A stretch of 64,000 bases of DNA from Candidatus Bathyarchaeota archaeon B24 (GTDB lineage Archaea; Thermoproteota; CALKCG01; B24): assembly GCA_001593865.1 (NCBI GenBank), contig LUCB01000001.1, positions 23,670 through 87,669 of the forward strand. The letters run 5' to 3'. Numbering within the stretch: the stretch's first letter is position 1; the number at the start of each line of letters is the position of its first letter. The notes below the pieces were generated by a model, which did not search any database, was not told where the DNA came from, and saw only the letters and a list, made by a program, of their open reading frames with translations. Positions 52,866 through 63,218 of this stretch are shown piece by piece. The position numbers were made by a program, and so were the translations under genes.

Positions 52866-53678
52866 CTACACGGGTATCTTTACGCCGTCTGGACCGCGTT
52901 TGTACAGACCTAGTTCAGGCATCTTCCTCAGCTGAGGAGCTGAAAAGACAGGGCCGTCTTTGCAAACTCTGTAAGGTCCTATACAGCAACTTCCGCATAT
53001 GCCTATTCCGCATTTCATGTACGCCTCTAGGCTCGCCTGAATCTTTAGATTCCATGCCTCACATAGCTCGTAGACCCTACGTATCATAGCCGGTGGACCG
53101 CACGTATAAACCACGTCATAGCTAGGTTTAGACCTCTTCAAATGCGTCTCGAAGAGCTCGGAGACTAGGCCTTTAAACCCGATGCTACCATCATCCGTCG
53201 CTATCATGACAGCGCCGTTCGGTCTCACCGCTCTCTCGACCCTAGCTAGTTGGAAGACATCGTGTTTGCTTCTAAATCCTAGAAACACTTCGATCCAGCA
53301 TCCATAGTCTTTAAGCTTATCCACCAAAGGTAGTAAGGTAGCCAGTCCTACACCGCCTGCCACCACGGCTACGCGACCTTTAACGATCTTGAATCCGTTA
53401 CCGTAGGGTCCTCTTACGCCTATGAGGTCATCCGGCTTTAGCCTATGCATAGCCTCGGTTGCATCGCCAACTTTAGCGACGGTTACGCTGCATAAATCTC
53501 CTATCGTGGAGAGGCTTAGGGGTATCTCATCGACCCCGATTATCCAGACCATAATGAACTGACCTGGCTTAGCCTTCGAGCATAGAGCGTCTTTAAACCA
53601 GAACGTTTTAACCCGCGGGTTTTCTTCGACGACTCGGACGAGTTTTACTATCCGTCTAAAGTTGATATTCGTACTCAC
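52866..53678 (-). CDS. pyrK: dihydroorotate dehydrogenase electron-transfer subunit
   Basis: 270 aa. FAD/NAD-binding barrel; C-terminal [2Fe-2S] motif CGIGICGSCC. Confidence 0.85.
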   Translation of the reverse strand: MSTNINFRRIVKLVRVVEENPRVKTFWFKDALCSKAKPGQFIMVWIIGVDEIPLSLSTIGDLCSVTVAKVGDATEAMHRLKPDDLIGVRGPYGNGFKIVKGRVAVVAGGVGLATLLPLVDKLKDYGCWIEVFLGFRSKHDVFQLARVERAVRPNGAVMIATDDGSIGFKGLVSELFETHLKRSKPSYDVVYTCGPPAMIRRVYELCEAWNLKIQASLEAYMKCGIGICGSCCIGPYRVCKDGPVFSAPQLRKMPELGLYKRGPDGVKIPV

Positions 53679-53683
53679 AAAAC

Positions 53684-54589
53684 CTACCTCCTGTGCGCTA
53701 AACCCCTCACCTCATCTATGGAACTATAGCCCCTCTCCTCAAGAAAGTCTCTCAAACCCTTGAGTATCCTCTTGAAAACCCTTAGTCCACCTCTAGCTAT
53801 GACCGAACCGAGTTGAACGGCCGTAGCCCCAGCCATCAGGAATTCGATAACATCATGTGCGGTCTCTATTCCTCCACATCCGAAGACCGGTACGTTCAGG
53901 GATTCTGTGATCTCGTAGACGCATCTAACCGCTATCGGTCTTATAGCTGGACCTGATAAGCCTCCGAAGATCCCTGCTAAGACCGGCCTACCCACCTCTA
54001 TGTCTATACTCATGGCTCTAACAGTGTTTATGGCCGTTAACGCGTCAGCACCGCCGTCTACAGCCGCCTCGGCGATTCTGACTATATCGGAAACGTTGGG
54101 TGAAAGCTTAACTATGACAGGCTTATCGAGATGTCTCTTTAGTGTTTGAACGTAGGATTCTACGAGGACCGGGTTTTTAGCGATTTCCGATATACCATCC
54201 ACGTGAGGACAGGAGACGTTGAGTTCGACCGCGGAGACTACATTGAAGTCTGAGACGATTCTACCGATTTCGACCAATTCGTCCTCGGAGAACGCGTAGA
54301 TGCTCAATATGATGGGGGCTTCCAAGCCTCTAAGCGTCTCTAGCTCTTTCATAAACTCCTCCAGACCTGGGTTTGGCAATCCCATAGAGTTAAGGAGTCC
54401 GAAGCCTAGGTCGACGACCGTGGGATTTGGATGACCTTTTCTAGGCTTAAGCCCTATGGACTTGGTGACAACTCCTCCGGCTCCAGATTCGATAACTCTT
54501 TTGAGAATAGGAGCCGTCAAACCCAGTATTCCAGCGGCTAATATGAGGGGGTTCCTAAACCGCAAACCCAGCGTTTCCACTTTTAACAT
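53684..54589 (-). CDS. pyrD: dihydroorotate dehydrogenase catalytic subunit (class 1B)
   Basis: The ORF track gives 53684..54640. The conserved start is MLKVETLGLRFRNPLILAAG (ATG at 54587-54589, 301 aa). FMN-binding GAGGVVTKSIG. 5 nt upstream of pyrK. Confidence 0.85.
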   Translation of the reverse strand: MLKVETLGLRFRNPLILAAGILGLTAPILKRVIESGAGGVVTKSIGLKPRKGHPNPTVVDLGFGLLNSMGLPNPGLEEFMKELETLRGLEAPIILSIYAFSEDELVEIGRIVSDFNVVSAVELNVSCPHVDGISEIAKNPVLVESYVQTLKRHLDKPVIVKLSPNVSDIVRIAEAAVDGGADALTAINTVRAMSIDIEVGRPVLAGIFGGLSGPAIRPIAVRCVYEITESLNVPVFGCGGIETAHDVIEFLMAGATAVQLGSVIARGGLRVFKRILKGLRDFLEERGYSSIDEVRGLAHRR

Positions 54590-54686
54590 GGGTTCGATAG
54601 ATGCTAGGTCTGTCAAGCCTAAAAATAGTTTAAACATCAAGTTTTTAAGGTTGTTCGACTAGTCTCCTCCTGGAGGTGTTTGACAC

Positions 54687-54863
54687 ATGCCGACCCATGG
54701 AAGCCTAACTAAAGCCGGTAAGGTTAGAAGCCAGACTCCTAAGATACCTGGAAGACCTAGGAAGTTTCCACCGCCCAAGGTTAGGAATAGAAGAAATTAC
54801 GTTAAACGCCTTATACTGAATAGAAAACCTGGTCAAAACTGGATGCTAGGAAGAGGAAGATAG
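54687..54863 (+). CDS. rps30e: ribosomal protein S30e (eS30)
   Basis: 58 aa, below the ORF-track length cut-off. MPTHGSLTKAGKVRSQTPKIPGRPRKFPPPKVRNRRNYVKRLILNRKPGQNWMLGRGR matches the eS30 HGSLTKAGKVR signature. GGAGGTG SD lies 7 nt upstream. Confidence 0.8.
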   Translation: MPTHGSLTKAGKVRSQTPKIPGRPRKFPPPKVRNRRNYVKRLILNRKPGQNWMLGRGR

Positions 54864-55118
54864 CCGCTCCTTCCCTTTCTCACCTTCTGGCAAAGGTGGT
54901 GGCGGAGTTTTAGTAGTCGCCATAGCCCAACCTATCCATATGAGAATTCCCCAGAAGACCAGTACGAGTATGTAAACAGGTACCGCTAGGGCCCACCAGC
55001 TAAGTTGCCTACCGAGAATCTGCCAATCAGATGGGGATAGGAACAGTAGCCATGTGTAAAGTAATACTGTTATTACACTCGAAACGCATATTATTGCCCC
55101 TATGGTCCTCTCGTTCAT
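54846..55118 (-). CDS. small 3-TM hypothetical membrane protein
   Basis: 90 aa. Three hydrophobic helices and a Pro/Lys-rich tail. Overlaps the rps30e 3' end by 18 nt (convergent). Could be spurious. Confidence 0.3.
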   Translation of the reverse strand: MNERTIGAIICVSSVITVLLYTWLLFLSPSDWQILGRQLSWWALAVPVYILVLVFWGILIWIGWAMATTKTPPPPLPEGEKGKERLSSSS

Positions 55119-55160: not shown

Positions 55161-55430
55161 TTAACTTCTAGCTCTCACGGTTAATACATCTCCTTCCACC
55201 GAAACCTTGAAGTCCTCCTCCAACCTCTCCTTTCGAAGCAGATGCTTAATCCAAACTTTAAGTGTCTTTTTACTCAACCCCACGGCATCGGGTATCTCGA
55301 TGATCCCATCTTTGAGAACAAGCTTCGAGCCGAGTTTAGTCTCTAGAAAGCTTAGCAGAGCCTTAGATGCGTCGCGGTTCTTTTTCTCAAGCGCCTTCAC
55401 ATCTACCTTATATCCGACCATAAGGCTCAT
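55161..55430 (-). CDS. small basic protein with ribosomal-protein-L22e-like sequence pattern
   Basis: 89 aa. ASKALLSFLETKL aligns with eL22 AANFEQFLQERIK. LSKKTLKVWIKHLLRKERLEEDFKVSVEGDVLTVR aligns with eL22 [36 protein letters not shown] (about 12 of 22 core positions conserved). Overlaps the DUF47 gene stop by 4 nt. Confidence 0.4.
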   Translation of the reverse strand: MSLMVGYKVDVKALEKKNRDASKALLSFLETKLGSKLVLKDGIIEIPDAVGLSKKTLKVWIKHLLRKERLEEDFKVSVEGDVLTVRARS

Positions 55431-56110
55431 CCTCCGGGCTTCGAAACTCTAACGGCTATAACCCTAACCTGGTCTGCGGTGTTCTCACACCAATCCGCCA
55501 CGTTTTCGAGAGCGTCTAGAAACTGAGCCACCATTATCACCTCGCCTATGGCAAAGTCTCTACAGCATTCAGCCTTAGCAAATACCCTACGACAGTTCTC
55601 ATAGAGGTCATCGATATTTTCTTCAAGTTTTTCGACCTGATCAGCGTTTTCAAGAGCTTTATCTACATCCGTCAACAGAAACTTCACAGATTTCTTAACT
55701 ATGTAAACGCATTCTTTAACCCTCTCAGCCATCCTTAAGATGTTATCCTTAAGCTCTTCGTTAAGCTTCTCTATCCGAATAATGGACATGATCCTGCCAG
55801 CTTCCCTAGCCCAGTCAGCTATCCAATCGATCCTTCTTACCAGATCCATCAAAACAGCCTTATCCTCGGACAGAAGCTCACTACCTGATAGCTCGTTTAA
55901 GATATCTCTCCTAACGTAGTCAGCCTCCTCCTCTTTACGGGAAAGCTCTTTAAGCTTTTGGATGGGGCTTTCTAAACCGCTTATGGAGAGAGCGATTGCC
56001 TCATATAATGCTTCGACGCAACCTACGGTTAGGTTAAGGTGCGACTCGATATGTCTTATAGCTAGGGTTCTACGTCGTCTACGAAACCATTCTAAAAGCT
56101 CCATACTCAC
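55427..56110 (-). CDS. DUF47 family protein (PhoU-like), second paralog in window
   Basis: 227 aa, helical repeat architecture matching the gene at 7828..8490. Co-transcribed with the eL22-like gene. Confidence 0.7.
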   Translation of the reverse strand: MSMELLEWFRRRRRTLAIRHIESHLNLTVGCVEALYEAIALSISGLESPIQKLKELSRKEEEADYVRRDILNELSGSELLSEDKAVLMDLVRRIDWIADWAREAGRIMSIIRIEKLNEELKDNILRMAERVKECVYIVKKSVKFLLTDVDKALENADQVEKLEENIDDLYENCRRVFAKAECCRDFAIGEVIMVAQFLDALENVADWCENTADQVRVIAVRVSKPGG

Positions 56111-56214: not shown

Positions 56215-57357
56215 TTGATGTCTTGGAGACGACGAAGGATCATACCCTCAGAGGGATACCTCTTACTTTTGGTGGGAATTCTGATAGGCTTCTTGCTTTT
56301 CACGATTATATCCGCCGTGTTTTCACTTGAGGCTTTGAAATCGCTGATCCCAGGTGAAAAAAAGCATACTCTACATGTCCTCTACACAAGTGAAAAACAA
56401 AGCTGGATGGAGGAAGTCGTACCGATGTTTGTAGAGAAATTCAAGGAGGAACACGGCTACGAGATAAGGGTCGAGCTTACCGTAGCGGGCTCCCATGAGA
56501 CAGTAAACCTAATTTTACACGGTTCCGTCAAGCCTGTAGTTTGGAGCCCGGCGTCGAGCATATGGATCCCTTACATAAACTATAAGTGGAAGAAACTGGG
56601 TTATAGATACGCCCTCGTCGAGGAATGGGAGCCGGTCTTAATAACCCCCACGGTGATAGTAACCTGGCGTTCTTTCCTAGAAAAGTACAAAGTCACGGGG
56701 TTTCTGAGTCTTTACGAGCTTGCTAAGAGGGGGGTTGAGTTTAAATATGGGCATCCAGACCCGATGTTGAGCAACGGAGGTGTTACAGCTGTTCTACTGG
56801 AGATAGCAGAGGCTGCTCATAAACCTGTCGACGAGCTTACGGTAGAGGATTTAGTCGACCCGCATGTCCAAGAGATTGTTAAGACGATAGAGTCTAAGGC
56901 TGTCTACTACGGTAGGAGCACCGGATTTTTCGGTAGATGGGCGGTGGAGAACGGTCCCTCGGCTATAACGGTTTTCTCGGTCTACGAGAACGTTGTGATA
57001 GATAACTCGGTCAAGGCTTTGAGAAAATGGAACGACCAGCTTGTGGCGGTGTATCCCAGCTTCGGTACCATACTTAACGACCATCCCTTCGCTATCTTAA
57101 ACGCACCATGGGTCGGTGAAGAAGAGAAGGCTATAGCTAAAGAGTTCATACAGTTTCTCCTCAGCAAAGAGGCTCAGGAAAAGGCGGTAAAGCACGGTTT
57201 TAGACCTGTTAGAAGCGACGTCGAGCTTGACCCCGAGGTCTTCAGCCCAGAAAATGGTGTAAGCTATACGTTAAACGTAACTTTTCACAATCCGCCTAAA
57301 GGAGAGGTGCTAGACGGTCTCTTTACGGTATGGGTTAAACTTAGAAGCAGAGGGTAG
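56215..57357 (+). CDS. ABC transporter substrate-binding protein, FbpA/iron(III)-thiamine-type, with N-terminal membrane anchor
   Basis: 380 aa. An N-terminal TM anchor typical of archaeal SBPs. TLHVLYTSEKQSW...GSHETVNLIL...VVWSPAS resembles the FbpA/ModA-type class II SBP fold. Confidence 0.65.
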   Translation: MMSWRRRRIIPSEGYLLLLVGILIGFLLFTIISAVFSLEALKSLIPGEKKHTLHVLYTSEKQSWMEEVVPMFVEKFKEEHGYEIRVELTVAGSHETVNLILHGSVKPVVWSPASSIWIPYINYKWKKLGYRYALVEEWEPVLITPTVIVTWRSFLEKYKVTGFLSLYELAKRGVEFKYGHPDPMLSNGGVTAVLLEIAEAAHKPVDELTVEDLVDPHVQEIVKTIESKAVYYGRSTGFFGRWAVENGPSAITVFSVYENVVIDNSVKALRKWNDQLVAVYPSFGTILNDHPFAILNAPWVGEEEKAIAKEFIQFLLSKEAQEKAVKHGFRPVRSDVELDPEVFSPENGVSYTLNVTFHNPPKGEVLDGLFTVWVKLRSRG

Positions 57358-57364
57358 ATAAGAT

Positions 57365-59068
57365 ATGCCGACCATATGGAGAATCCTTTCTAAGACTATC
57401 TTATGTTCAACTATGGTCGCCTTAGCCGTTTTAGTCCTCCTTCCAACGGTCTTTTTAGCATCGTTTCCGATCGTTTACTTCGACGAGGTTAGATACGAGG
57501 TATTCGAGAACCCGTTGGTCGGAGACGAAAATCTTAGAATGATAATATCCGTCCTACTGTTTTCGTTTAAACTCTCTATTTCCGCGGTTATTATAGACCT
57601 GGTGTTGGGAATACCCTTAGCTTTTCTACTGGCTAGGGGGAGATTCCCAGGTAAAACCCTACTCGAAACTTTGGTGACCCTCCCCCTAGTCATACCGACT
57701 TCAGGTTTTGGGTTTGCGTCGTTACTGACATGGACCACAGTTTCAGGGATAGGAGGATGGTTAGGTCTAGGTAGAGGAATCTTAGAAACTAGCGCGACCA
57801 TCCCTGGTACAGGCATTCCGATTCTCATGCTTATAGTCCATGTAAGCCTAACCCTACCTTACGTCGTTAGAACCCTTCAGGCTAAACTAGTCGAGTTAAA
57901 CCCAGTCTACGAGGATGCCTCTAGGACATTAGGAGCTACCTCCCTGACGACCTTCAGGAAAATCCTACTACCCCAAATTCTTCCCGCCGTTTTCTCAGGC
58001 TCTGTATTGGCGTTCGCCAGGTCGTTGGGTGAAACGGGGGCAACCATGGTCGTATCGGGTGTTAGGATAACCGCGGCGATAGCTGTCGTGAGGTGGGAGT
58101 TCGAGTTTAAGCTTGGCGCTGCGGCATTTTTAGGGCTTATTCTCGTTCTCATAACTTGGCTAATTATACTGCCGGTGGAACTCCTTTTAACCGGTAAGCA
58201 GGGGATAATCAAGCCTCCACCCCTGATATATAAAACCGGCTTAGAGAAGGTTTTCTTAAAACTGGAATCGAAGCTATCGAAAAGGGGGCTTAGAAACCTT
58301 CTATACGTTGTATGCATATTTGCGGTGGCTATTCTAGTGGTTATTCCCGTCATAGTGGTGGGCGAGTCTGTCGTCGCTTATTGGTACGCAGACCCCTATA
58401 CCGGTAAGAGGGAGGGAGGTGTGGTCTATCAGCTTTTAGGACCTCCAAACTATCTCCCGGCGATACTTAGGGCTACGGCTATCTCTTTCACCTCAGCATT
58501 TGTTTCGACTTACATCTCTGTGTTCCTATCCATACCTCTTGCATACATAATCGAGAGGTATAGATTCGGTAGGGTCTTAAGAGCCATACTGAAGATACCG
58601 CTTGTAGTACCTTCCTCGGCCCTAGGATTGTCGACGCTGCTCATGTGGGGTCCTAAGTTTATGGGGCTCATCACACCCGGTATATGGCTTATAATACTAA
58701 CGCATATAGTATTCTCCGTTCCGGTGATAGTCGAGACGATCATAGCGGTCTATGAGGGGTCGGATATCAAGCTCTACGAGGATGCTGCTAGAACCCTCGG
58801 TGCAAACCCATACTATACGGCTGAGAAGATAAGTCTCCCAGTTCTTAAGGAGGGTATAATAACCGGGGCTATCCTATCGTTCACCCATTCACTGGGCGAG
58901 ACCGGGGCTACGATGATCGTTATGGGCTCTGATATACCTATATCTGCCCTCGTGGTTAACATGGTCGAGTCTTTAGCTATCCCCGCCGCCCTCTTCACGT
59001 CGACATACCTCATATTCATATCCATGGCTCTGATATTCGTCTTCAGGCTAGCCACTAGAAGGAAGTAG
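57365..59068 (+). CDS. ABC transporter permease with two fused transmembrane domains (FbpB/ThiP-like)
   Basis: 567 aa, about 12 TM. Two EAA-loop motifs: ARSLGETGATMVVSG and THSLGETGATMIVMG. Confidence 0.8.
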   Translation: MPTIWRILSKTILCSTMVALAVLVLLPTVFLASFPIVYFDEVRYEVFENPLVGDENLRMIISVLLFSFKLSISAVIIDLVLGIPLAFLLARGRFPGKTLLETLVTLPLVIPTSGFGFASLLTWTTVSGIGGWLGLGRGILETSATIPGTGIPILMLIVHVSLTLPYVVRTLQAKLVELNPVYEDASRTLGATSLTTFRKILLPQILPAVFSGSVLAFARSLGETGATMVVSGVRITAAIAVVRWEFEFKLGAAAFLGLILVLITWLIILPVELLLTGKQGIIKPPPLIYKTGLEKVFLKLESKLSKRGLRNLLYVVCIFAVAILVVIPVIVVGESVVAYWYADPYTGKREGGVVYQLLGPPNYLPAILRATAISFTSAFVSTYISVFLSIPLAYIIERYRFGRVLRAILKIPLVVPSSALGLSTLLMWGPKFMGLITPGIWLIILTHIVFSVPVIVETIIAVYEGSDIKLYEDAARTLGANPYYTAEKISLPVLKEGIITGAILSFTHSLGETGATMIVMGSDIPISALVVNMVESLAIPAALFTSTYLIFISMALIFVFRLATRRK

Positions 59069-59108
59069 CTAAGGCTTTATACCTGTGTTAGCCATCTTAT
59101 TGTGCTAG

Positions 59109-60206
59109 ATGGGGAGTCTTAGGCTCGTCGACATCTCGAAGCGGTTCGATAGGGTCGAGGCTCTTAAAGATGTGGATTTGGAGATTTATGACGGAGAGTA
59201 TGCAGTGGTTCTCGGCCCGACAGGAGCGGGTAAGACTACACTTCTCAGGATAATAGCCGGTCTTCTGAGACAGGATAACGGCGAAGTCTACATAAACGAG
59301 GTTCAGGTAGACGACCTTCCACCGGAGGAGCGGGGTGTTGCATTATTCTTTCAGAACTTCGCTCTTTTCCCACATATGACGGTACTCGATAACGTCGCCT
59401 TCAGTTTAAGGGTTAAGGGGTTAAGCCTTGAAGAGTCTGAGAGGAAAGCGATGGATATTCTCAGGATGGTGCATCTAGACCATAGGGCCTATTCGTATCC
59501 TCGGGAACTCAGCGGAGGTATGCAGCAGAGGGTTGCCTTGGCTAGAACCATAGCCGCGGGCGTGGATATACTGCTTTTAGACGAGCCGCTCAGCCAGCTA
59601 GACGCTAAGATAAAATCTGAGATTCAATACGAGCTTAGAGACCTTGCCAAGAGCCTTGGGCTGACGGTTCTTCATGTAACTAACGATGTCGAGGAGGCCT
59701 TAGCCGTAGCCGACCGCATAGCGATTCTTAACAAGGGTGAAATAGTCCAGGTAGGTACTCCGGTGGAGATTATGGAGAATCCAAAAACGGCCTTCGTAGC
59801 AAGCTTCATAGCCGAGATGAACCTCATGGAAGGCGTCGTCGAGGAGTCTTCAGAGAACAGGGTGGTAGTGGATATCGGCGGAGGATTTAAGGTCGAATCT
59901 TCTAGGAATGGCTTCAAAAAAGGTGAGCTAGTGATCGTCGGCGTCAAACCGAGCAGTTTCAAGATCGGTGGAGACGGTAAAAATGGTCTAACAGGTAAGG
60001 TTGAGGACTGGGTTTTCTCCTTCGGCTTTAGGAGGGTAACTGTTCAGCTGGATAATGGTTCTAGAGTATCCGTTAAGACTGAGAGGAAGGATATCGAGAG
60101 GGGAAGTTCCATATCATTGACCGTAGACCCTAGAGATGTCTACTTGTTCCCCTATCTTAAGGGAGGCTTAAGAACGGTGTTAGCTGAGGTCTCGGGGGTT
60201 TTCTGA
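59109..60206 (+). CDS. ABC transporter ATP-binding protein with C-terminal TOBE-like domain (NBD 1)
   Basis: 365 aa. Walker A GPTGAGKTTLL, signature LSGGMQQRVALAR, Walker B LLLDEPLSQLD. Confidence 0.85.
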   Translation: MGSLRLVDISKRFDRVEALKDVDLEIYDGEYAVVLGPTGAGKTTLLRIIAGLLRQDNGEVYINEVQVDDLPPEERGVALFFQNFALFPHMTVLDNVAFSLRVKGLSLEESERKAMDILRMVHLDHRAYSYPRELSGGMQQRVALARTIAAGVDILLLDEPLSQLDAKIKSEIQYELRDLAKSLGLTVLHVTNDVEEALAVADRIAILNKGEIVQVGTPVEIMENPKTAFVASFIAEMNLMEGVVEESSENRVVVDIGGGFKVESSRNGFKKGELVIVGVKPSSFKIGGDGKNGLTGKVEDWVFSFGFRRVTVQLDNGSRVSVKTERKDIERGSSISLTVDPRDVYLFPYLKGGLRTVLAEVSGVF

Positions 60207-61327
60207 TGCCTGAAGTTAAGCTTGTGAACATCGTTAAAAGATTCGGAAACATCACAGCCTTACGTGGGATAAACCTAACGGTAGAGAATGGAGAATATGT
60301 ATGCATACTCGGCCCGAGCGGATGCGGTAAGACTACACTTCTCAGGATAATAGCCGGTCTGTTGAAGCCCGATGAAGGTCAAGTCTATATAGATGGAGAA
60401 GATGTCACCCATAAACCCCCAGAGTATAGGGGGGTAGGCTTCGTATTCCAAAGTATCGCTTTGTTTCCGCATATGAACAGCTGGGAAAACGTCCTTTATG
60501 GGCCTACAGTTAAGGGGCTTGATAAGAGTATATCCCATAGAATCGCCAGGGAGATCATGAGGACCCTAAAGACCATAGACTATAGCGGCCTATACCCGGG
60601 AGAGCTTAGCGGAGGAATAGCTCAGATGATAGCCATAGCTAGAGCGTTGGCCACAGGAGCTAAGCTTTTACTTTTAGACGAGCCTTTGGGTGCGTTAGAC
60701 CCAAGGATAAGAGTCGACCTAAGATATGAGCTCAGGAGGATCGTTAAAGGTCTGGGTTTAACGGCGATACATGTGACGCACAATCAGGAGGAGGCTTTAA
60801 CAATAGCCGATCGGATCGTAGTCATGCGTAGCGGCATGGTCGAAGCCTACGATACGCCTGAAAACCTGTATTGGCATCCTAAAAACCTATTCGTAGCAGA
60901 CTTCATAGGCAAAGTCAACGTCTTAGAGGGGTTTATCAAGAAGGCGCTTACCGGAGGCAAAGCTCTCGTAGAGCTCACAGGAGGTATATCGATCGAAGTA
61001 TATGCTAAAGGCTTTTCAGAAGGCGACAAAGTCGTCGTAGCCGTAAGACCTGAGAACTTTGAAATCCTAGACCGTTCGGAAGCTGATAAACCAAACTTGT
61101 TAAGAGGTGTTGTGACAAGGGCCAGGTTTATGGGCGACTACTACCGATACGATGTCACACTTGAGTCCGGTGAACGTGTAACCGTAAATACCCCGTTATA
61201 TAGGTCTGAAAAAATTCAGGTGAGAAAAAAGGGAGAACCGGTCTTGGTCAGGTTCGACCCTGAGAAAGCACTTGTATACGCCTACCCGAAGAGGGGTATA
61301 GAGAGGGAGCTTTCCATAGAGGTTTAG
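60206..61327 (+). CDS. ABC transporter ATP-binding protein with C-terminal TOBE-like domain (NBD 2, variant signature motif)
   Basis: 373 aa. GPSGCGKTTLL, signature LSGGIAQMIAIARA, LLLDEPLGALD. The start overlaps NBD1's stop by 1 nt (TGATG). Confidence 0.85.
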   Translation: MPEVKLVNIVKRFGNITALRGINLTVENGEYVCILGPSGCGKTTLLRIIAGLLKPDEGQVYIDGEDVTHKPPEYRGVGFVFQSIALFPHMNSWENVLYGPTVKGLDKSISHRIAREIMRTLKTIDYSGLYPGELSGGIAQMIAIARALATGAKLLLLDEPLGALDPRIRVDLRYELRRIVKGLGLTAIHVTHNQEEALTIADRIVVMRSGMVEAYDTPENLYWHPKNLFVADFIGKVNVLEGFIKKALTGGKALVELTGGISIEVYAKGFSEGDKVVVAVRPENFEILDRSEADKPNLLRGVVTRARFMGDYYRYDVTLESGERVTVNTPLYRSEKIQVRKKGEPVLVRFDPEKALVYAYPKRGIERELSIEV

Positions 61328-62316
61328 AACCTTCTGTCCACTACGTCGTAGACGCCTGGTCCCGTGCCTATGAGCGTAACAGGAACCCTAAGTTTCTCTT
61401 CGACCTCTCTTATGAAACGTTTAGCTTCTGAAGAGAGTTCTTCGAACGTCCTTGCCCCTGAGCACTCAGGATATAGGATATCTATCTTCGTTATAGCTAG
61501 CTGCGTAGCCGTGTTGAGCATGATAGCCCTCTTTGCAAGGTTGAAGTTGAAAGGTGCGGCTCTCCGTTCTCTACCGGTTACCGTCGCTCTCTCTAGCCAC
61601 CCTCTTCTTAAAGCCTCATCACGGCTGAGTTCGCCTTCAAGCGGACCCTTACCGACCCTTGTGACGTAGGCTTTAAACACTACCACGACATCCGTCACCC
61701 TTTTAGGTCCTATACCTGCTTCACTACAGACCGCCGAAGCGGTCGTATCCCTCCCCGTAACGTAGGGATACGTACCGTGGATCAGCGACAGAAACGTCCC
61801 TTGAGTCCCTTCTACCAAAACTTTACCCCCTTCATCGAGTATCCTGTTAAGTTCTACCGGGACATCCGCTAGATACGGTTTAAGCTCAGGTAGGTCTTTG
61901 GCGAGCCTAGCTATACGTCGCACCCTATCGGCTATGGCGGGTCCGACACCTTGCCCGGTAGTTCCTATACGTTTACCCGTTGCCCTATCCTCCTCTATAT
62001 GCTTAGCCTCTATGATCGAGCTATGCCTATCCACCCAGACCCTTCCCTTAACCCCTGTCTCCTCGACTTCCTTAAGAAATACTTGTGGGTTGACGTTAGC
62101 TCCTGAGGCCACGTATAATCGACATTTCTCATAGACGAAAGCCGATGGAACCATCCTCAGCCCATAGGTTTTCCCTTTCCATACGACCGTGTGTCCTGCG
62201 TTTACAGAGCCTGTTCTAACGGTTGCATCGACTCTATCCTTGAGGGCTAGGTAGGCTACGATCTTACCCTTCCCCTCGTCTCCGAAAAAACCTCCCACGA
62301 TGACTGTGCAAGGCAT
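61324..62316 (-). CDS. purA: adenylosuccinate synthetase (short archaeal type)
   Basis: The ORF track gives 61324..62340. The conserved start is MPCTVIVGGFFGDEGKGK (ATG 62314-62316, 330 aa). GDEGKGK P-loop and GTTGQGVGP. Confidence 0.85.
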   Translation of the reverse strand: MPCTVIVGGFFGDEGKGKIVAYLALKDRVDATVRTGSVNAGHTVVWKGKTYGLRMVPSAFVYEKCRLYVASGANVNPQVFLKEVEETGVKGRVWVDRHSSIIEAKHIEEDRATGKRIGTTGQGVGPAIADRVRRIARLAKDLPELKPYLADVPVELNRILDEGGKVLVEGTQGTFLSLIHGTYPYVTGRDTTASAVCSEAGIGPKRVTDVVVVFKAYVTRVGKGPLEGELSRDEALRRGWLERATVTGRERRAAPFNFNLAKRAIMLNTATQLAITKIDILYPECSGARTFEELSSEAKRFIREVEEKLRVPVTLIGTGPGVYDVVDRRF

Positions 62317-62393
62317 AACTATCCCGATTCTAGAAAGCATCTATCAGTATTTAACCATTAGCTTTACATAATCCGAACGCTTCAAGTCGTTCT

Positions 62394-62471: not shown

Positions 62472-63218
62472 GTGAAAGTTTTAGAAAAGACTAGAACCAT
62501 ATTCACCGTGGTCGTCATAGTAGCCATATCGACTCTGTTTTTGATGTTAACGTTCACACCTGAAAACTCCACAGCTACCGATGGAAATGAAGAAGCCAAA
62601 CCTACCTTATCCGTTATGGGAGTAAGCTCCATGAACGTCCAACCAGATCTGGCTTCCGTAGCTCTCACGGTCGAAGTGAAGGCTGAGAACGCGTCAGAGG
62701 CTATGGGTAAAAACGCCGAGATAATGTCGAGAGTTATAAACGCCCTTAAACAGCTGGGTCTTGAAGATGACGAGATAAGAACTAGACACGTAGGACTCTA
62801 CCCAGAGTATTTCTATCCTAAGGATAAACCACCGGTGTTGATAGGCTATAAGGCTGTTAACAGTATAACCGTTACCACCCAGAAATTCGACATATTAGGT
62901 TTGATCATCGACACAGCGGTAGCAAACGGGGTTAACAAGGTCGAGGGCGTATGGTTCACCCTATCGAAGAAGCTTCAGGACAGCGTTAAACTTCAGTTAA
63001 TATCCTCAGCCATGGAGAACGCCAAGCTTAAAGCCGAGGCCGCTTTGGAGCCGCTGGGTATGTCGATCACGGGTGTTAAAAGCATCGAGATAAAGGAAGC
63101 CGGATGGTATTACCCAGTTGTATATAGAGAAGCCGCCGAAACCGTCGCTACGACTCCGATAATGCCTGGCGAAATCGAAGTTACCGTGATGGTCTATGTG
63201 GTTTTCTACATAGGATGA
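62472..63218 (+). CDS. SIMPL/DUF541 family protein with N-terminal TM anchor
   Basis: 248 aa. TM anchor, then a domain with the beta-rich DUF541 pattern (NVQPDLASVALTVEV...GYKAVNSITV). Confidence 0.55.
   Translation: MKVLEKTRTIFTVVVIVAISTLFLMLTFTPENSTATDGNEEAKPTLSVMGVSSMNVQPDLASVALTVEVKAENASEAMGKNAEIMSRVINALKQLGLEDDEIRTRHVGLYPEYFYPKDKPPVLIGYKAVNSITVTTQKFDILGLIIDTAVANGVNKVEGVWFTLSKKLQDSVKLQLISSAMENAKLKAEAALEPLGMSITGVKSIEIKEAGWYYPVVYREAAETVATTPIMPGEIEVTVMVYVVFYIG

What the first reader, a model, noticed from the sequence alone, without database searches (positions are those of the whole stretch)
55161..56110. eL22-like small protein co-transcribed with a DUF47 (PhoU-like) protein
The 89-aa product shows a convincing positional match to eukaryotic ribosomal protein L22e across the conserved core (A..(L/F)..FL(E/Q).(K/R)(L/I); (L/F)SK(K/R).LK.(W/L).K.(L/Y)L(R/K)K..L.(E/D).(F/L)(K/R)V....L.(V/L)R). 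The classical archaeal r-protein set does not include eL22, so a homolog in a TACK-type genome would be noteworthy. Oddly, it overlaps the stop of a DUF47 gene by 4 nt (ATGA), implying co-translation with a putative transport-regulator-like protein rather than with ribosomal genes. rps30e lies 300 bp away on the other strand.
Basis: inference. Interest (0 to 1): 0.5.

Follow-up and report, generated by a model that had tools for sequence, protein, structure and literature searches.

The report
Divergent eL22 ribosomal-protein homolog in Bathyarchaeia
A small, unannotated gene in this Bathyarchaeota-type archaeal genome encodes a compact, highly diverged relative of ribosomal protein eL22, which the literature reports only from eukaryotes and some Asgard archaea, and similar genes occur in Nitrososphaerota (Thaumarchaeota) genomes.

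Summary
Both ORFs are real and under purifying selection. The downstream one (conserved form 86 aa, 55161..55421 minus strand) is a true eL22 homolog.

- **Pfam:** no significant hit. PF01776 is the top hit at 13.6 bits, below the gathering score of 23.6.
- **Iterated profile search:** it leads through intermediate archaeal groups to Asgard proteins that pass PF01776 and that NCBI names "60S ribosomal protein L22".
- **hhalign:** the close family alone against 25 Asgard eL22 gives 88.5% probability, or 96.7% with one more group added.
- **RNA-binding helix:** six of the seven basic residues of human eL22 residues 80-93 are basic here too.

Relatives carry the labels Candidatus Bathyarchaeota and Nitrososphaerota/Thaumarchaeota, both in the TACK group and not Asgard.

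The conserved start codon lies 9 nt downstream of the ATGA overlap, with GGAGG 9 nt upstream of it. DUF47 linkage also varies between lineages, and the more constant neighbour is purA. A DUF47 gene also lies 1.4-1.9 kb upstream of eL22 in several Asgard loci.

Whether the protein sits in the ribosome is inferred, not shown.

The parts
55161..55421 (-). [quoted passage not shown]
55422..55430 (-). Optional 3-codon extension (MSL) from the upstream ATG that overlaps the DUF47 stop (ATGA). Probably not translated as part of the protein.
   Evidence: The ATG is present only in the window and L026-L028. L001-L004 have CTG at this position.
55431..55435 (-). GGAGG Shine-Dalgarno-like motif inside the last codons of DUF47, 9 nt upstream of the conserved ATG
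   Evidence: Read directly from the sequence. Conserved in L001-L004 and L026-L028.
55221..55274 (-). Helix alpha-2 (residues 50-67, SKKTLKVWIKHLLRKERL). This is the most conserved segment of the superfamily and aligns with human eL22 residues 79-96.
   Evidence: Alignments; K59, L62 and L67 are invariant in A8. Human basic residues 80-93 are required for 28S rRNA binding and for incorporation into ribosomes (PMC2668802). Six of the seven basic positions are K/R here: K51, K52, K55, K59, R63, K64.
55427..56110 (-). DUF47 / PhoU_div gene (227 aa), immediately upstream in the same transcription unit
   Evidence: PF01865 E 2e-24; PF01895 E 4e-6; TIGR00153 74 bits, below its cut-off of 104. Closest solved structure 2iiu, E 3e-4. 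dN/dS 0.034.
54846..55118 (-). 90-aa predicted membrane protein, 42 nt downstream of the eL22-like gene. Possibly the third gene of the unit.
   Evidence: ORF. Conserved after the eL22-like gene in L001-L004, L005, L031 and L032. No Pfam family above threshold.
54687..54863 (+). rps30e (eS30), convergent with the unit. Its 3' end overlaps the membrane-protein gene by 18 nt.
   Evidence: PF04758 E 9e-11; NF006817 80.3 bits, above its cut-off of 75.
61324..62340 (-). purA (adenylosuccinate synthetase), the most constant upstream neighbour of the eL22-like gene across the TACK groups. Here it is separated from DUF47 by an ABC-transporter operon.
   Evidence: NF003295 499.7 bits, above its cut-off of 368. 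purA sits directly upstream in L005, L007, L011, L021, L022, L030 and L031. It sits upstream of DUF47 plus the small gene in L006 and L008.
56215..61327 (+). ABC-transporter operon transcribed divergently from DUF47: solute-binding protein, fused double permease, two TOBE-type ATPases. It lies between purA and DUF47 only in the window's sub-lineage.
   Evidence: Pfam and NCBIfam hits. Present in L001 and, in part (solute-binding-protein gene only, at the contig end), in L003; absent in L006, L008 and L031.

Best explanation
The gene at 55161..55421 (-) encodes an 86-aa, basic, compact ortholog of large-subunit ribosomal protein eL22.

**Shown**
- It is a conserved, selected coding gene.
- It has the eL22 fold.
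- It is homologous in sequence to Asgard proteins that pass the eL22 Pfam model.
- It keeps the basic helix that in human eL22 binds 28S rRNA and is needed for incorporation into ribosomes.
- Relatives occur in genomes labelled Bathyarchaeota and Nitrososphaerota.

**Inferred**
- It binds the outer surface of domain III of 23S rRNA through helix alpha-2 (K51, K52, K55, K59, R63, K64). In eukaryotes that site lies between eL31, eL19 and eL38 near the tunnel exit.
- It acts as a non-essential stabiliser of rRNA folding and large-subunit assembly. A dispensable role would fit its patchy distribution.
- It is transcribed with the upstream DUF47 gene, given the 5-nt spacer, and translated from its own Shine-Dalgarno sequence, which lies inside the DUF47 3' end.
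- The purA-(DUF47)-eL22 arrangement is inherited gene order and does not indicate a shared biochemical pathway.

My confidence that this is a true eL22 homolog is about 0.93. My confidence that it is a ribosome component is about 0.6.
For: **Structure**
- The window protein's model has pLDDT 87.4.
- All of the top 50 Foldseek hits are eL22 chains, with TM-score 0.59-0.81.

**Sequence**
- PF01776 is the top Pfam hit in 8 members, all below threshold at 13.5-18.8 bits.
- The profile search returns 26 proteins that carry PF01776, with E 1.6e-5 to 1.7e-2 against 5.8e9 sequences. They include proteins that NCBI names 60S ribosomal protein L22 from Thor-, Hermod-, Odin- and Promethearchaeota.
- Five of these proteins were rescanned here and pass the Pfam gathering score at 26.9-32.9 bits.
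- hhalign against 25 Asgard eL22 gives 88.5% probability (E 2.7e-6) for the close family alone. With group B added it gives 96.7% (E 3.9e-10). Neither profile contains the bridging sequence P0011.
- Group B shares the motif LRVYLKRFLH with Asgard eL22.

**Function**
- Human residues 80-93 are required for 28S rRNA binding and ribosome incorporation (PMC2668802). They align with the most conserved segment here.
- The protein is basic, with pI 9.7.

**Taxonomy**
- The 83%-identical, syntenic relative is named Candidatus Bathyarchaeota archaeon.
- Four group-C genes lie in Thaumarchaeota, Nitrososphaerales or Nitrososphaerota genomes assembled from metagenomes. One lies on a 1.75-Mb contig.
- Both phyla belong to the kingdom Thermoproteati.
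Against: - No direct evidence places this protein, or even the Asgard eL22, in a ribosome. No archaeal ribosome chain appeared among the structural hits.
- The window protein fails the Pfam gathering threshold.
- It is only 17% identical to human eL22 and about 22% identical to Asgard eL22.
- It lacks the N-terminal extension and the acidic C-terminal tail.
- The family looks rare. About 20 sequence clusters were found. Groups A and B were not found among GTDB species representatives with the patterns used.
- The gene is not in a ribosomal-protein operon.
- Its repeated linkage to DUF47 and purA could point to a different role.
- AlphaFold was trained on eL22 structures and the input alignments were shallow, at 5 and 10 sequences.
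Confidence: 0.6

Rival explanations
1. It is an eL22-fold RNA- or protein-binding protein that has left the ribosome, or never joined it. It would work with the co-transcribed DUF47 (PhoU-like) protein, for example as a small regulator tied to phosphate or nucleotide homeostasis (purA, pyr genes).
For: - The small gene is separated from DUF47 by 5 nt in the window's group, 2 nt in L008 and 11 nt in L006.
- DUF47 also lies 1.4-1.9 kb upstream of eL22, on the same strand, in 3 of the 5 Asgard sequence clusters examined.
- The neighbours are purA, pyrD/pyrK or pyrF, not ribosomal operons.
- The patchy distribution suggests the protein is dispensable.
- From general knowledge, eukaryotic eL22 has known extra-ribosomal RNA-binding roles (see also PMC2668802, PMC13228614).
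Against: - DUF47 is absent next to the gene in L005 and L031 (the same group A), in all group-C loci and in L030.
- In Asgard the two genes are separated by 2-3 genes, one of them on the opposite strand in several of the loci, so they are not one operon.
- The best-conserved part of the protein is the helix that binds rRNA in eL22.
- From general knowledge, many archaeal 'e'-type ribosomal protein genes stand alone, as rps30e does here.
Confidence: 0.27
2. The resemblance to eL22 is convergent or due to chance. The protein would be an unrelated small alpha/beta-plait protein, or a helix-turn-helix protein as the weak GerE, HTH_23 and homeodomain hits suggest.
For: - Single-sequence searches are not significant: Pfam E 0.088, with GerE at 0.12.
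- phmmer against the PDB puts Hox-B13 first at E 0.22.
- The family profile against the PDB puts uS8 and NarL at the same level as eL22, E 0.3-0.9.
- hhalign against human eL22 alone gives only 16% probability.
Against: - The iterated search and profile-profile comparison are significant and align 70-76 of 86 columns.
- A graded series of intermediates shares exact motifs with Asgard eL22.
- The model contains a four- to five-stranded sheet, which is incompatible with a helix-turn-helix domain.
Confidence: 0.03
3. It is a real eL22 homolog, but TACK lineages acquired it by horizontal transfer from Asgard archaea and it is not part of their ancestral ribosome.
For: - The distribution within Thermoproteati is patchy, and no hits were found among GTDB representatives for groups A and B.
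- Group B shares the LRVYLKRFLH motif with Asgard eL22.
Against: - The TACK groups are as distant from Asgard eL22 (22-31% identity) as they are from each other (20-34%), so there is no sign of recent transfer.
- The TACK groups share their own conserved locus, purA-(DUF47)-eL22-like-(~230-aa protein)-pyrF. It is found in genomes labelled Bathyarchaeota and in genomes labelled Nitrososphaerota, and it differs from the Asgard locus TIM-(DUF47)-...-DUF2085-eL22-Arf.
Confidence: 0.1

Closest known systems
Eukaryotic ribosomal protein eL22 (Pfam PF01776, Ribosomal_L22e; e.g. human RPL22, PDB 4ug0 chain LU)
   Same: [quoted passage not shown]
- Same order of conserved segments: the FL motif in helix 1, then SK..LK...K..L+K..L in helix 2, then a +V strand.
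- The basic RNA-binding helix is retained (PMC2668802).
- Basic pI.
   Different: - Only 14-20% identical and below the Pfam gathering score.
- 86 aa instead of about 120-130 aa.
- No lysine-rich N-terminal extension and no acidic C-terminal tail.
- About 10 residues shorter between helix 1 and strand 2.
- Its place in the ribosome is untested.
Asgard archaeal eL22 (NCBI '60S ribosomal protein L22' of Thor-, Hermod-, Odin- and Promethearchaeota; reported from Loki onward: PMC4571567, PMC8997704, bioRxiv 10.1101/2021.04.02.438162)
   Same: - Homologous by profile-profile comparison, at 88.5% and 96.7% probability.
- Both lack the eukaryotic insertion after helix 1.
- Both are stand-alone genes outside ribosomal-protein operons.
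- A DUF47 gene lies nearby in several loci.
   Different: - Asgard proteins are 102-131 aa and pass PF01776.
- They have an N-terminal extension and an extra C-terminal strand (..RFAIIEFVTVVYVEE).
- They are 16-27% identical to the window's group.
- Their locus is different: TIM-...-DUF2085-eL22-Arf GTPase-thioredoxin, against purA-(DUF47)-eL22-like.
Other 'eukaryotic' ribosomal proteins with patchy archaeal distribution (eS25, eS26 and eS30 in TACK and Asgard; PMC11698992, PMC12993045)
   Same: Small 'e'-type ribosomal proteins that are present in TACK and Asgard archaea and absent from other archaea. eS30 is encoded 298 nt away in this window.
   Different: Those proteins are established ribosome components, seen in Saccharolobus structures. 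Papers that mention eL22 in archaea report it only from Asgard (PMC13228614, PMC8997704). No paper in the searchable library links eL22 to TACK.
DUF47 / PhoU_div family (PF01865; TIGR00153; solved example 2iiu/2olt)
   Same: The upstream gene is a clear member at domain level (86.5 bits).
   Different: - It is below the TIGR00153 cut-off (74 against 104 bits).
- It is not next to a Pit/PHO4 phosphate permease in this window.
- Its constant partners are purA and the eL22-like gene, not a transporter.

Membership tests
eL22 (Ribosomal_L22e, PF01776) | Scores above the curated Pfam gathering threshold (23.6 bits) | tested here: not met
   The window protein scores 13.6 bits, E 0.088. Relatives score 13.5-18.8 bits. 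PF01776 is nevertheless the top hit in 8 members.
eL22 (Ribosomal_L22e, PF01776) | Statistically supported sequence homology to accepted family members | tested here: met
   The profile search reaches 26 proteins carrying PF01776, at E 1.6e-5 to 1.7e-2 in a database of 5.8e9 sequences. hhalign against 25 Asgard eL22 gives 88.5% probability (group A alone) and 96.7% (groups A and B). Five of these Asgard proteins were rescanned and pass the gathering score.
eL22 (Ribosomal_L22e, PF01776) | [quoted passage not shown] | tested here: met
eL22 (Ribosomal_L22e, PF01776) | Basic RNA-binding helix equivalent to human residues 80-93 (PMC2668802) | tested here: met
   By alignment, human K80, R81, K84, K88, K89, K92, K93 correspond to window K51, K52, K55, K59, H60, R63, K64. 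RNA binding itself was not tested.
eL22 (Ribosomal_L22e, PF01776) | Stoichiometric component of the large ribosomal subunit, bound to rRNA domain III between eL31, eL19 and eL38 (PMC13228614) | not testable with these tools
   This needs proteomics or cryo-EM of ribosomes. No archaeal ribosome chain was found among the structural neighbours.
eL22 (Ribosomal_L22e, PF01776) | Lysine-rich N-terminal extension and acidic C-terminal tail, typical of eukaryotic members | tested here: not met
   Both are absent from the window protein. An acidic, lysine-rich tail is present in the Nitrososphaerota group C.
DUF47 / PhoU_div (PF01865), for the upstream gene | Pfam model above the gathering score over its full length | tested here: met
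   86.5 bits against a gathering score of 24.4, covering profile positions 11-213 of 214.
TIGR00153 family (NCBIfam hypothetical equivalog), for the upstream gene | Score above the curated cut-off of 104.3 bits | tested here: not met
   74.2 bits.

The most novel reading that the evidence does not exclude
eL22 is not a eukaryote-plus-Asgard innovation. It was already present, next to a DUF47 gene, in the common ancestor of TACK (Thermoproteati) and Asgard archaea, and most lineages later lost it. On this reading the compact 77-118-aa TACK forms are real subunits of the large ribosomal subunit and are invisible to current annotation models. eL22 should then be removed from the list of Asgard-specific eukaryotic signature proteins. 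The archaeal ribosome of some Bathyarchaeia and Nitrososphaerota would hold one more 'eukaryotic' protein than is currently recognised.
Probability: 0.4. Interest if true: 0.65.

Novelty: new member of a known kind. Interest (0 to 1): 0.55.

Why it matters
eL22 is listed as one of about a dozen eukaryote-specific ribosomal proteins. Its presence in some Asgard archaea is cited as support for the Asgard-eukaryote relationship (PMC8997704, PMC13228614).

Divergent orthologs in Bathyarchaeota- and Nitrososphaerota-labelled genomes would move the protein's origin, or at least its spread, beyond Asgard. They would add to the list of 'eukaryotic' ribosomal proteins shared with TACK, alongside eS25, eS26 and eS30. 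They also show that curated models miss such short, fast-evolving proteins, so presence/absence tables of eukaryotic signature proteins may be incomplete.

The finding also yields a testable prediction. Ribosomes of these archaea should carry an extra small protein on domain III, near the tunnel exit.

Tried and rejected
- **Single-sequence and shallow-profile searches** gave only noise-level hits. These were Pfam and NCBIfam on the 89-aa protein, phmmer and the family profile against PDB sequences (Hox-B13, uS8 and NarL at the same level as eL22), and hhalign against human eL22 alone (16%).
- **The weak helix-turn-helix, GerE and homeodomain hits** were rejected. The model has a beta-sheet, and fold search separates eL22 cleanly from everything else.
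- **The exhaustive HMMER search** of 1.84e9 representatives with the close-family profile added only two true relatives and one spurious repetitive protein. It gave no direct link to eL22.
- **The bridge to eL22** worked only after adding P0011, which scored E 0.13. P0011 was accepted because it shares the position directly after purA.
- **Check against profile contamination.** hhalign was repeated with profiles that contain neither P0011 nor any other group-C sequence.
- **The first genome-contig scan** found nothing, and the alignment of all groups was too diverse for that tool.
- **The second genome-contig scan** used a hand-made degenerate DNA pattern. It gave 4 true hits and 1 chance hit, the Poribacteria locus L019, which has an in-frame stop.
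- **The afdb50 structure library** was not available.
- **Rfam and tRNA scans** of the window found nothing.
- **DUF47 orthology.** Whether the DUF47 genes next to eL22 in TACK and in Asgard are orthologs could not be settled.
- **A constant DUF47-eL22 operon** was considered and rejected.
Full report
**What is in the sequence**

The minus strand carries a 227-aa ORF at 55427..56110 and an 89-aa ORF at 55161..55430. The larger one is a clear DUF47/PhoU_div protein (PF01865 E 2e-24, PF01895 E 4e-6). It falls below the TIGR00153 cut-off. Its closest solved relative is the hypothetical protein 2iiu.

rps30e lies 298 nt away on the other strand at 54687..54863. A 90-aa membrane-protein gene at 54846..55118 lies between the small ORF and rps30e. 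Neither tRNA genes nor Rfam families are found anywhere in the window.

Against a syntenic relative that is 83% identical at protein level, dN/dS is 0.14 for the small gene and 0.034 for DUF47. Both are therefore genuine coding genes.

**Start codon**

Homologs in the databases begin at or after the second ATG, 'M(V/N/S)GYK'. In the 83% relatives the upstream triplet is CTG and the DUF47 stop is followed by 5 nt before the ATG. GGAGG, which encodes the last Gly-Gly of DUF47, lies 9 nt upstream of the conserved ATG and touches the upstream one directly.

The product is therefore most likely 86 aa (55161..55421). The ATGA overlap is kept only in the three closest relatives, L026-L028, and is probably incidental. 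With a 5-nt spacer and the Shine-Dalgarno sequence inside the upstream gene, co-transcription remains the natural reading. This step is an inference.

**Is it eL22? Structure**

- Foldseek against the PDB gives eL22 chains for all of the top 50 hits, with TM-score 0.59-0.81.

**Is it eL22? Sequence**

Direct searches fail.

- PF01776 is the best Pfam hit but scores only 13.6 bits against a gathering score of 23.6.
- PDB sequence searches are at noise level.
- An exhaustive HMMER search of 1.84e9 representatives with the close-family profile adds only two true relatives.

Iteration succeeds. A profile of ten sequences (A3) retrieved seven further unannotated archaeal proteins. It then retrieved 26 proteins that all carry PF01776, at E 1.6e-5 to 1.7e-2 for a database of 5.8e9 sequences. 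Among them are NCBI '60S ribosomal protein L22' entries from Thor-, Hermod-, Odin- and Promethearchaeota. Five of them were rescanned here and pass the Pfam gathering score at 26.9-32.9 bits.

The bridging sequence P0011 might have contaminated the profile, so I compared profiles that exclude it, using hhalign against 25 Asgard eL22.

- The window's own group (7 sequences) gives 88.5% probability, E 2.7e-6, over 70 columns.
- Adding the next group (10 sequences) gives 96.7%, E 3.9e-10, over 76 of 86 columns.

The intermediates form a graded series:

| Source | Segment of helix alpha-2 and the following strand |
|---|---|
| Window | SKKTLKVWIKHLLRKERLEEDFKVSV |
| Group B | SKSRLRVYLKRFLHVNRLNDKFRVLV |
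| Asgard | SKTQLRVYLKRFLHLNALRDDLKIIS |
| Human | [26 protein letters not shown] |

PF01776 is the top hit, below threshold, in eight members of the new groups. I regard the homology as established.

**Functional signature**

Houmani and Ruf showed that the basic residues in positions 80-93 of human eL22 are required for 28S rRNA binding, nucleolar accumulation and incorporation into ribosomes (PMC2668802). That segment aligns with the most conserved part of the archaeal family. Six of the seven basic positions are Lys or Arg in the window protein, and the seventh is His. The protein is basic, with pI 9.7.

In eukaryotes eL22 is a non-essential, globular protein on the outer face of rRNA domain III, between eL31, eL19 and eL38 (PMC13228614). 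The same role is the most economical prediction here.

**Who has it**

- **Group A** (the window's group): 85-88 aa, about 7 sequence clusters. It includes a protein that NCBI names as from 'Candidatus Bathyarchaeota archaeon', on a 62-kb contig syntenic with the window.
- **Group B:** 77-80 aa, from metagenomes, with the same purA-DUF47-small arrangement.
- **Group C:** 93-118 aa with an acidic, lysine-rich tail. A custom degenerate DNA scan of GTDB species representatives found it in four genomes assembled from metagenomes and titled Thaumarchaeota, Nitrososphaerales or Nitrososphaerota. One copy lies on a 1.75-Mb contig.
- **Further variants:** P0018, L029 and L030.

Bathyarchaeota and Nitrososphaerota both belong to the kingdom Thermoproteati, that is TACK. 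Identities between groups are 20-34%, about the same as between each group and Asgard eL22 (22-31%).

Groups A and B were not found among GTDB representatives with the patterns used. The family is therefore either rare or poorly sampled, and I cannot state its full distribution.

**Gene neighbourhood**

The constant neighbour in TACK is purA.

- purA-small in L005, L007, L011, L021, L022, L030 and L031.
- purA-DUF47-small in L006 and L008.
- In the window: purA (61324..62340), then an ABC-transporter operon on the opposite strand, then DUF47, the small gene, the membrane protein, and convergent rps30e.

In groups B and C and in L030, a protein of about 230 aa with no Pfam hit follows the small gene, and pyrF comes after it.

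DUF47 is thus lineage-variable, and the ABC transporter is specific to the window's sub-lineage.

Unexpectedly, a DUF47 gene also lies 1.4-1.9 kb upstream of eL22, on the same strand, in 3 of the 5 Asgard sequence clusters examined. It sits within a conserved block of TIM, DUF47, one or two further genes (DUF2085 directly before eL22 in most of the loci), eL22, an Arf-like GTPase and, in most of the loci, a thioredoxin gene right after it. The window's DUF47 is 29% identical to that Asgard DUF47 and 28% identical to the group-B one. This may be a relic of an ancestral DUF47-eL22 adjacency. I could not test orthology.

**Comparison with what is known, and novelty**

Papers that mention eL22 in archaea report it only from Asgard lineages (PMC4571567, PMC8997704, bioRxiv 10.1101/2021.04.02.438162). 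[quoted passage not shown] Full-text searches that combined eL22 or L22e with TACK, Bathyarchaeota, Thermoproteota or Korarchaeota found no report of eL22 outside Asgard. That library does not cover subscription journals or database annotations.

The proteins found here carry no Pfam domain and are named 'hypothetical protein' where they are named at all.

The finding is therefore a new, divergent set of members of a known family in phyla where that family was not known. It is not a new kind of system.

**Verdict**

- Its interpretation is supported, with two corrections: the start codon, and the variable DUF47 linkage.
- Homology to eL22: about 0.93.
- Ribosomal function: about 0.6.
- Interest is moderate (0.55). 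The result changes the stated phyletic range of a 'eukaryote/Asgard-specific' ribosomal protein and gives a clear experimental prediction, but it extends a known pattern and does not reveal a new mechanism.

Noticed in passing
L012 3490-4164, L017 5432-6118 and L024 4900-5574 (Asgard loci), compared with window 55427..56110: A DUF47/PhoU_div gene lies 1.4-1.9 kb upstream of the Asgard eL22 gene on the same strand in 3 of the 5 Asgard sequence clusters examined. It is 29% identical to the window's DUF47. This may be a relic of DUF47-eL22 synteny shared by TACK and Asgard archaea, or a functional link.
   Followed up: partly
window 54846..55118 (-): A 90-aa protein with two predicted transmembrane helices lies 42 nt downstream of the eL22-like gene. 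It is conserved at that position in group-A relatives (L001, L005, L031, L032). Its 3' end overlaps the 3' end of rps30e by 18 nt. It has no family assignment.
   Followed up: partly
window 56215..61327 (+): An ABC-transporter operon lies between purA and DUF47 only in the window's sub-lineage, so it looks like an insertion into the purA-DUF47-eL22-like block. It comprises an SBP_bac_11 solute-binding protein, a 567-aa fused double permease (best match ModB, CysT or WtpB type) and two TOBE-type ATPases. The substrate is unknown; an oxyanion such as molybdate, tungstate or sulfate is suggested.
   Followed up: partly
L006 4859-5563; L008 10570-11274; L021 260-973; L022 4338-5051; L030 6408-7082: A conserved protein of about 224-237 aa follows the eL22-like gene and precedes pyrF (OMP decarboxylase) in groups B and C and in L030. 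It has no Pfam hit where one was looked up or scanned (L006, L008, L021, L022); the L030 copy was not scanned. Its function is unknown.
   Followed up: no
L029 60-500: A 146-aa variant of the eL22-like protein carries an N-terminal extension of about 65 residues, on a 1.1-kb metagenome contig. The start codon was not verified.
   Followed up: no
window 52866..54640 (-) and 62472..63218 (+): pyrD and pyrK (dihydroorotate dehydrogenase and its electron-transfer subunit) lie just beyond rps30e. A SIMPL/YggE-like 'oxidative stress defense protein' gene is divergent from purA. Together with purA and pyrF in relatives, the eL22-like gene sits in a nucleotide-biosynthesis neighbourhood.
   Followed up: partly
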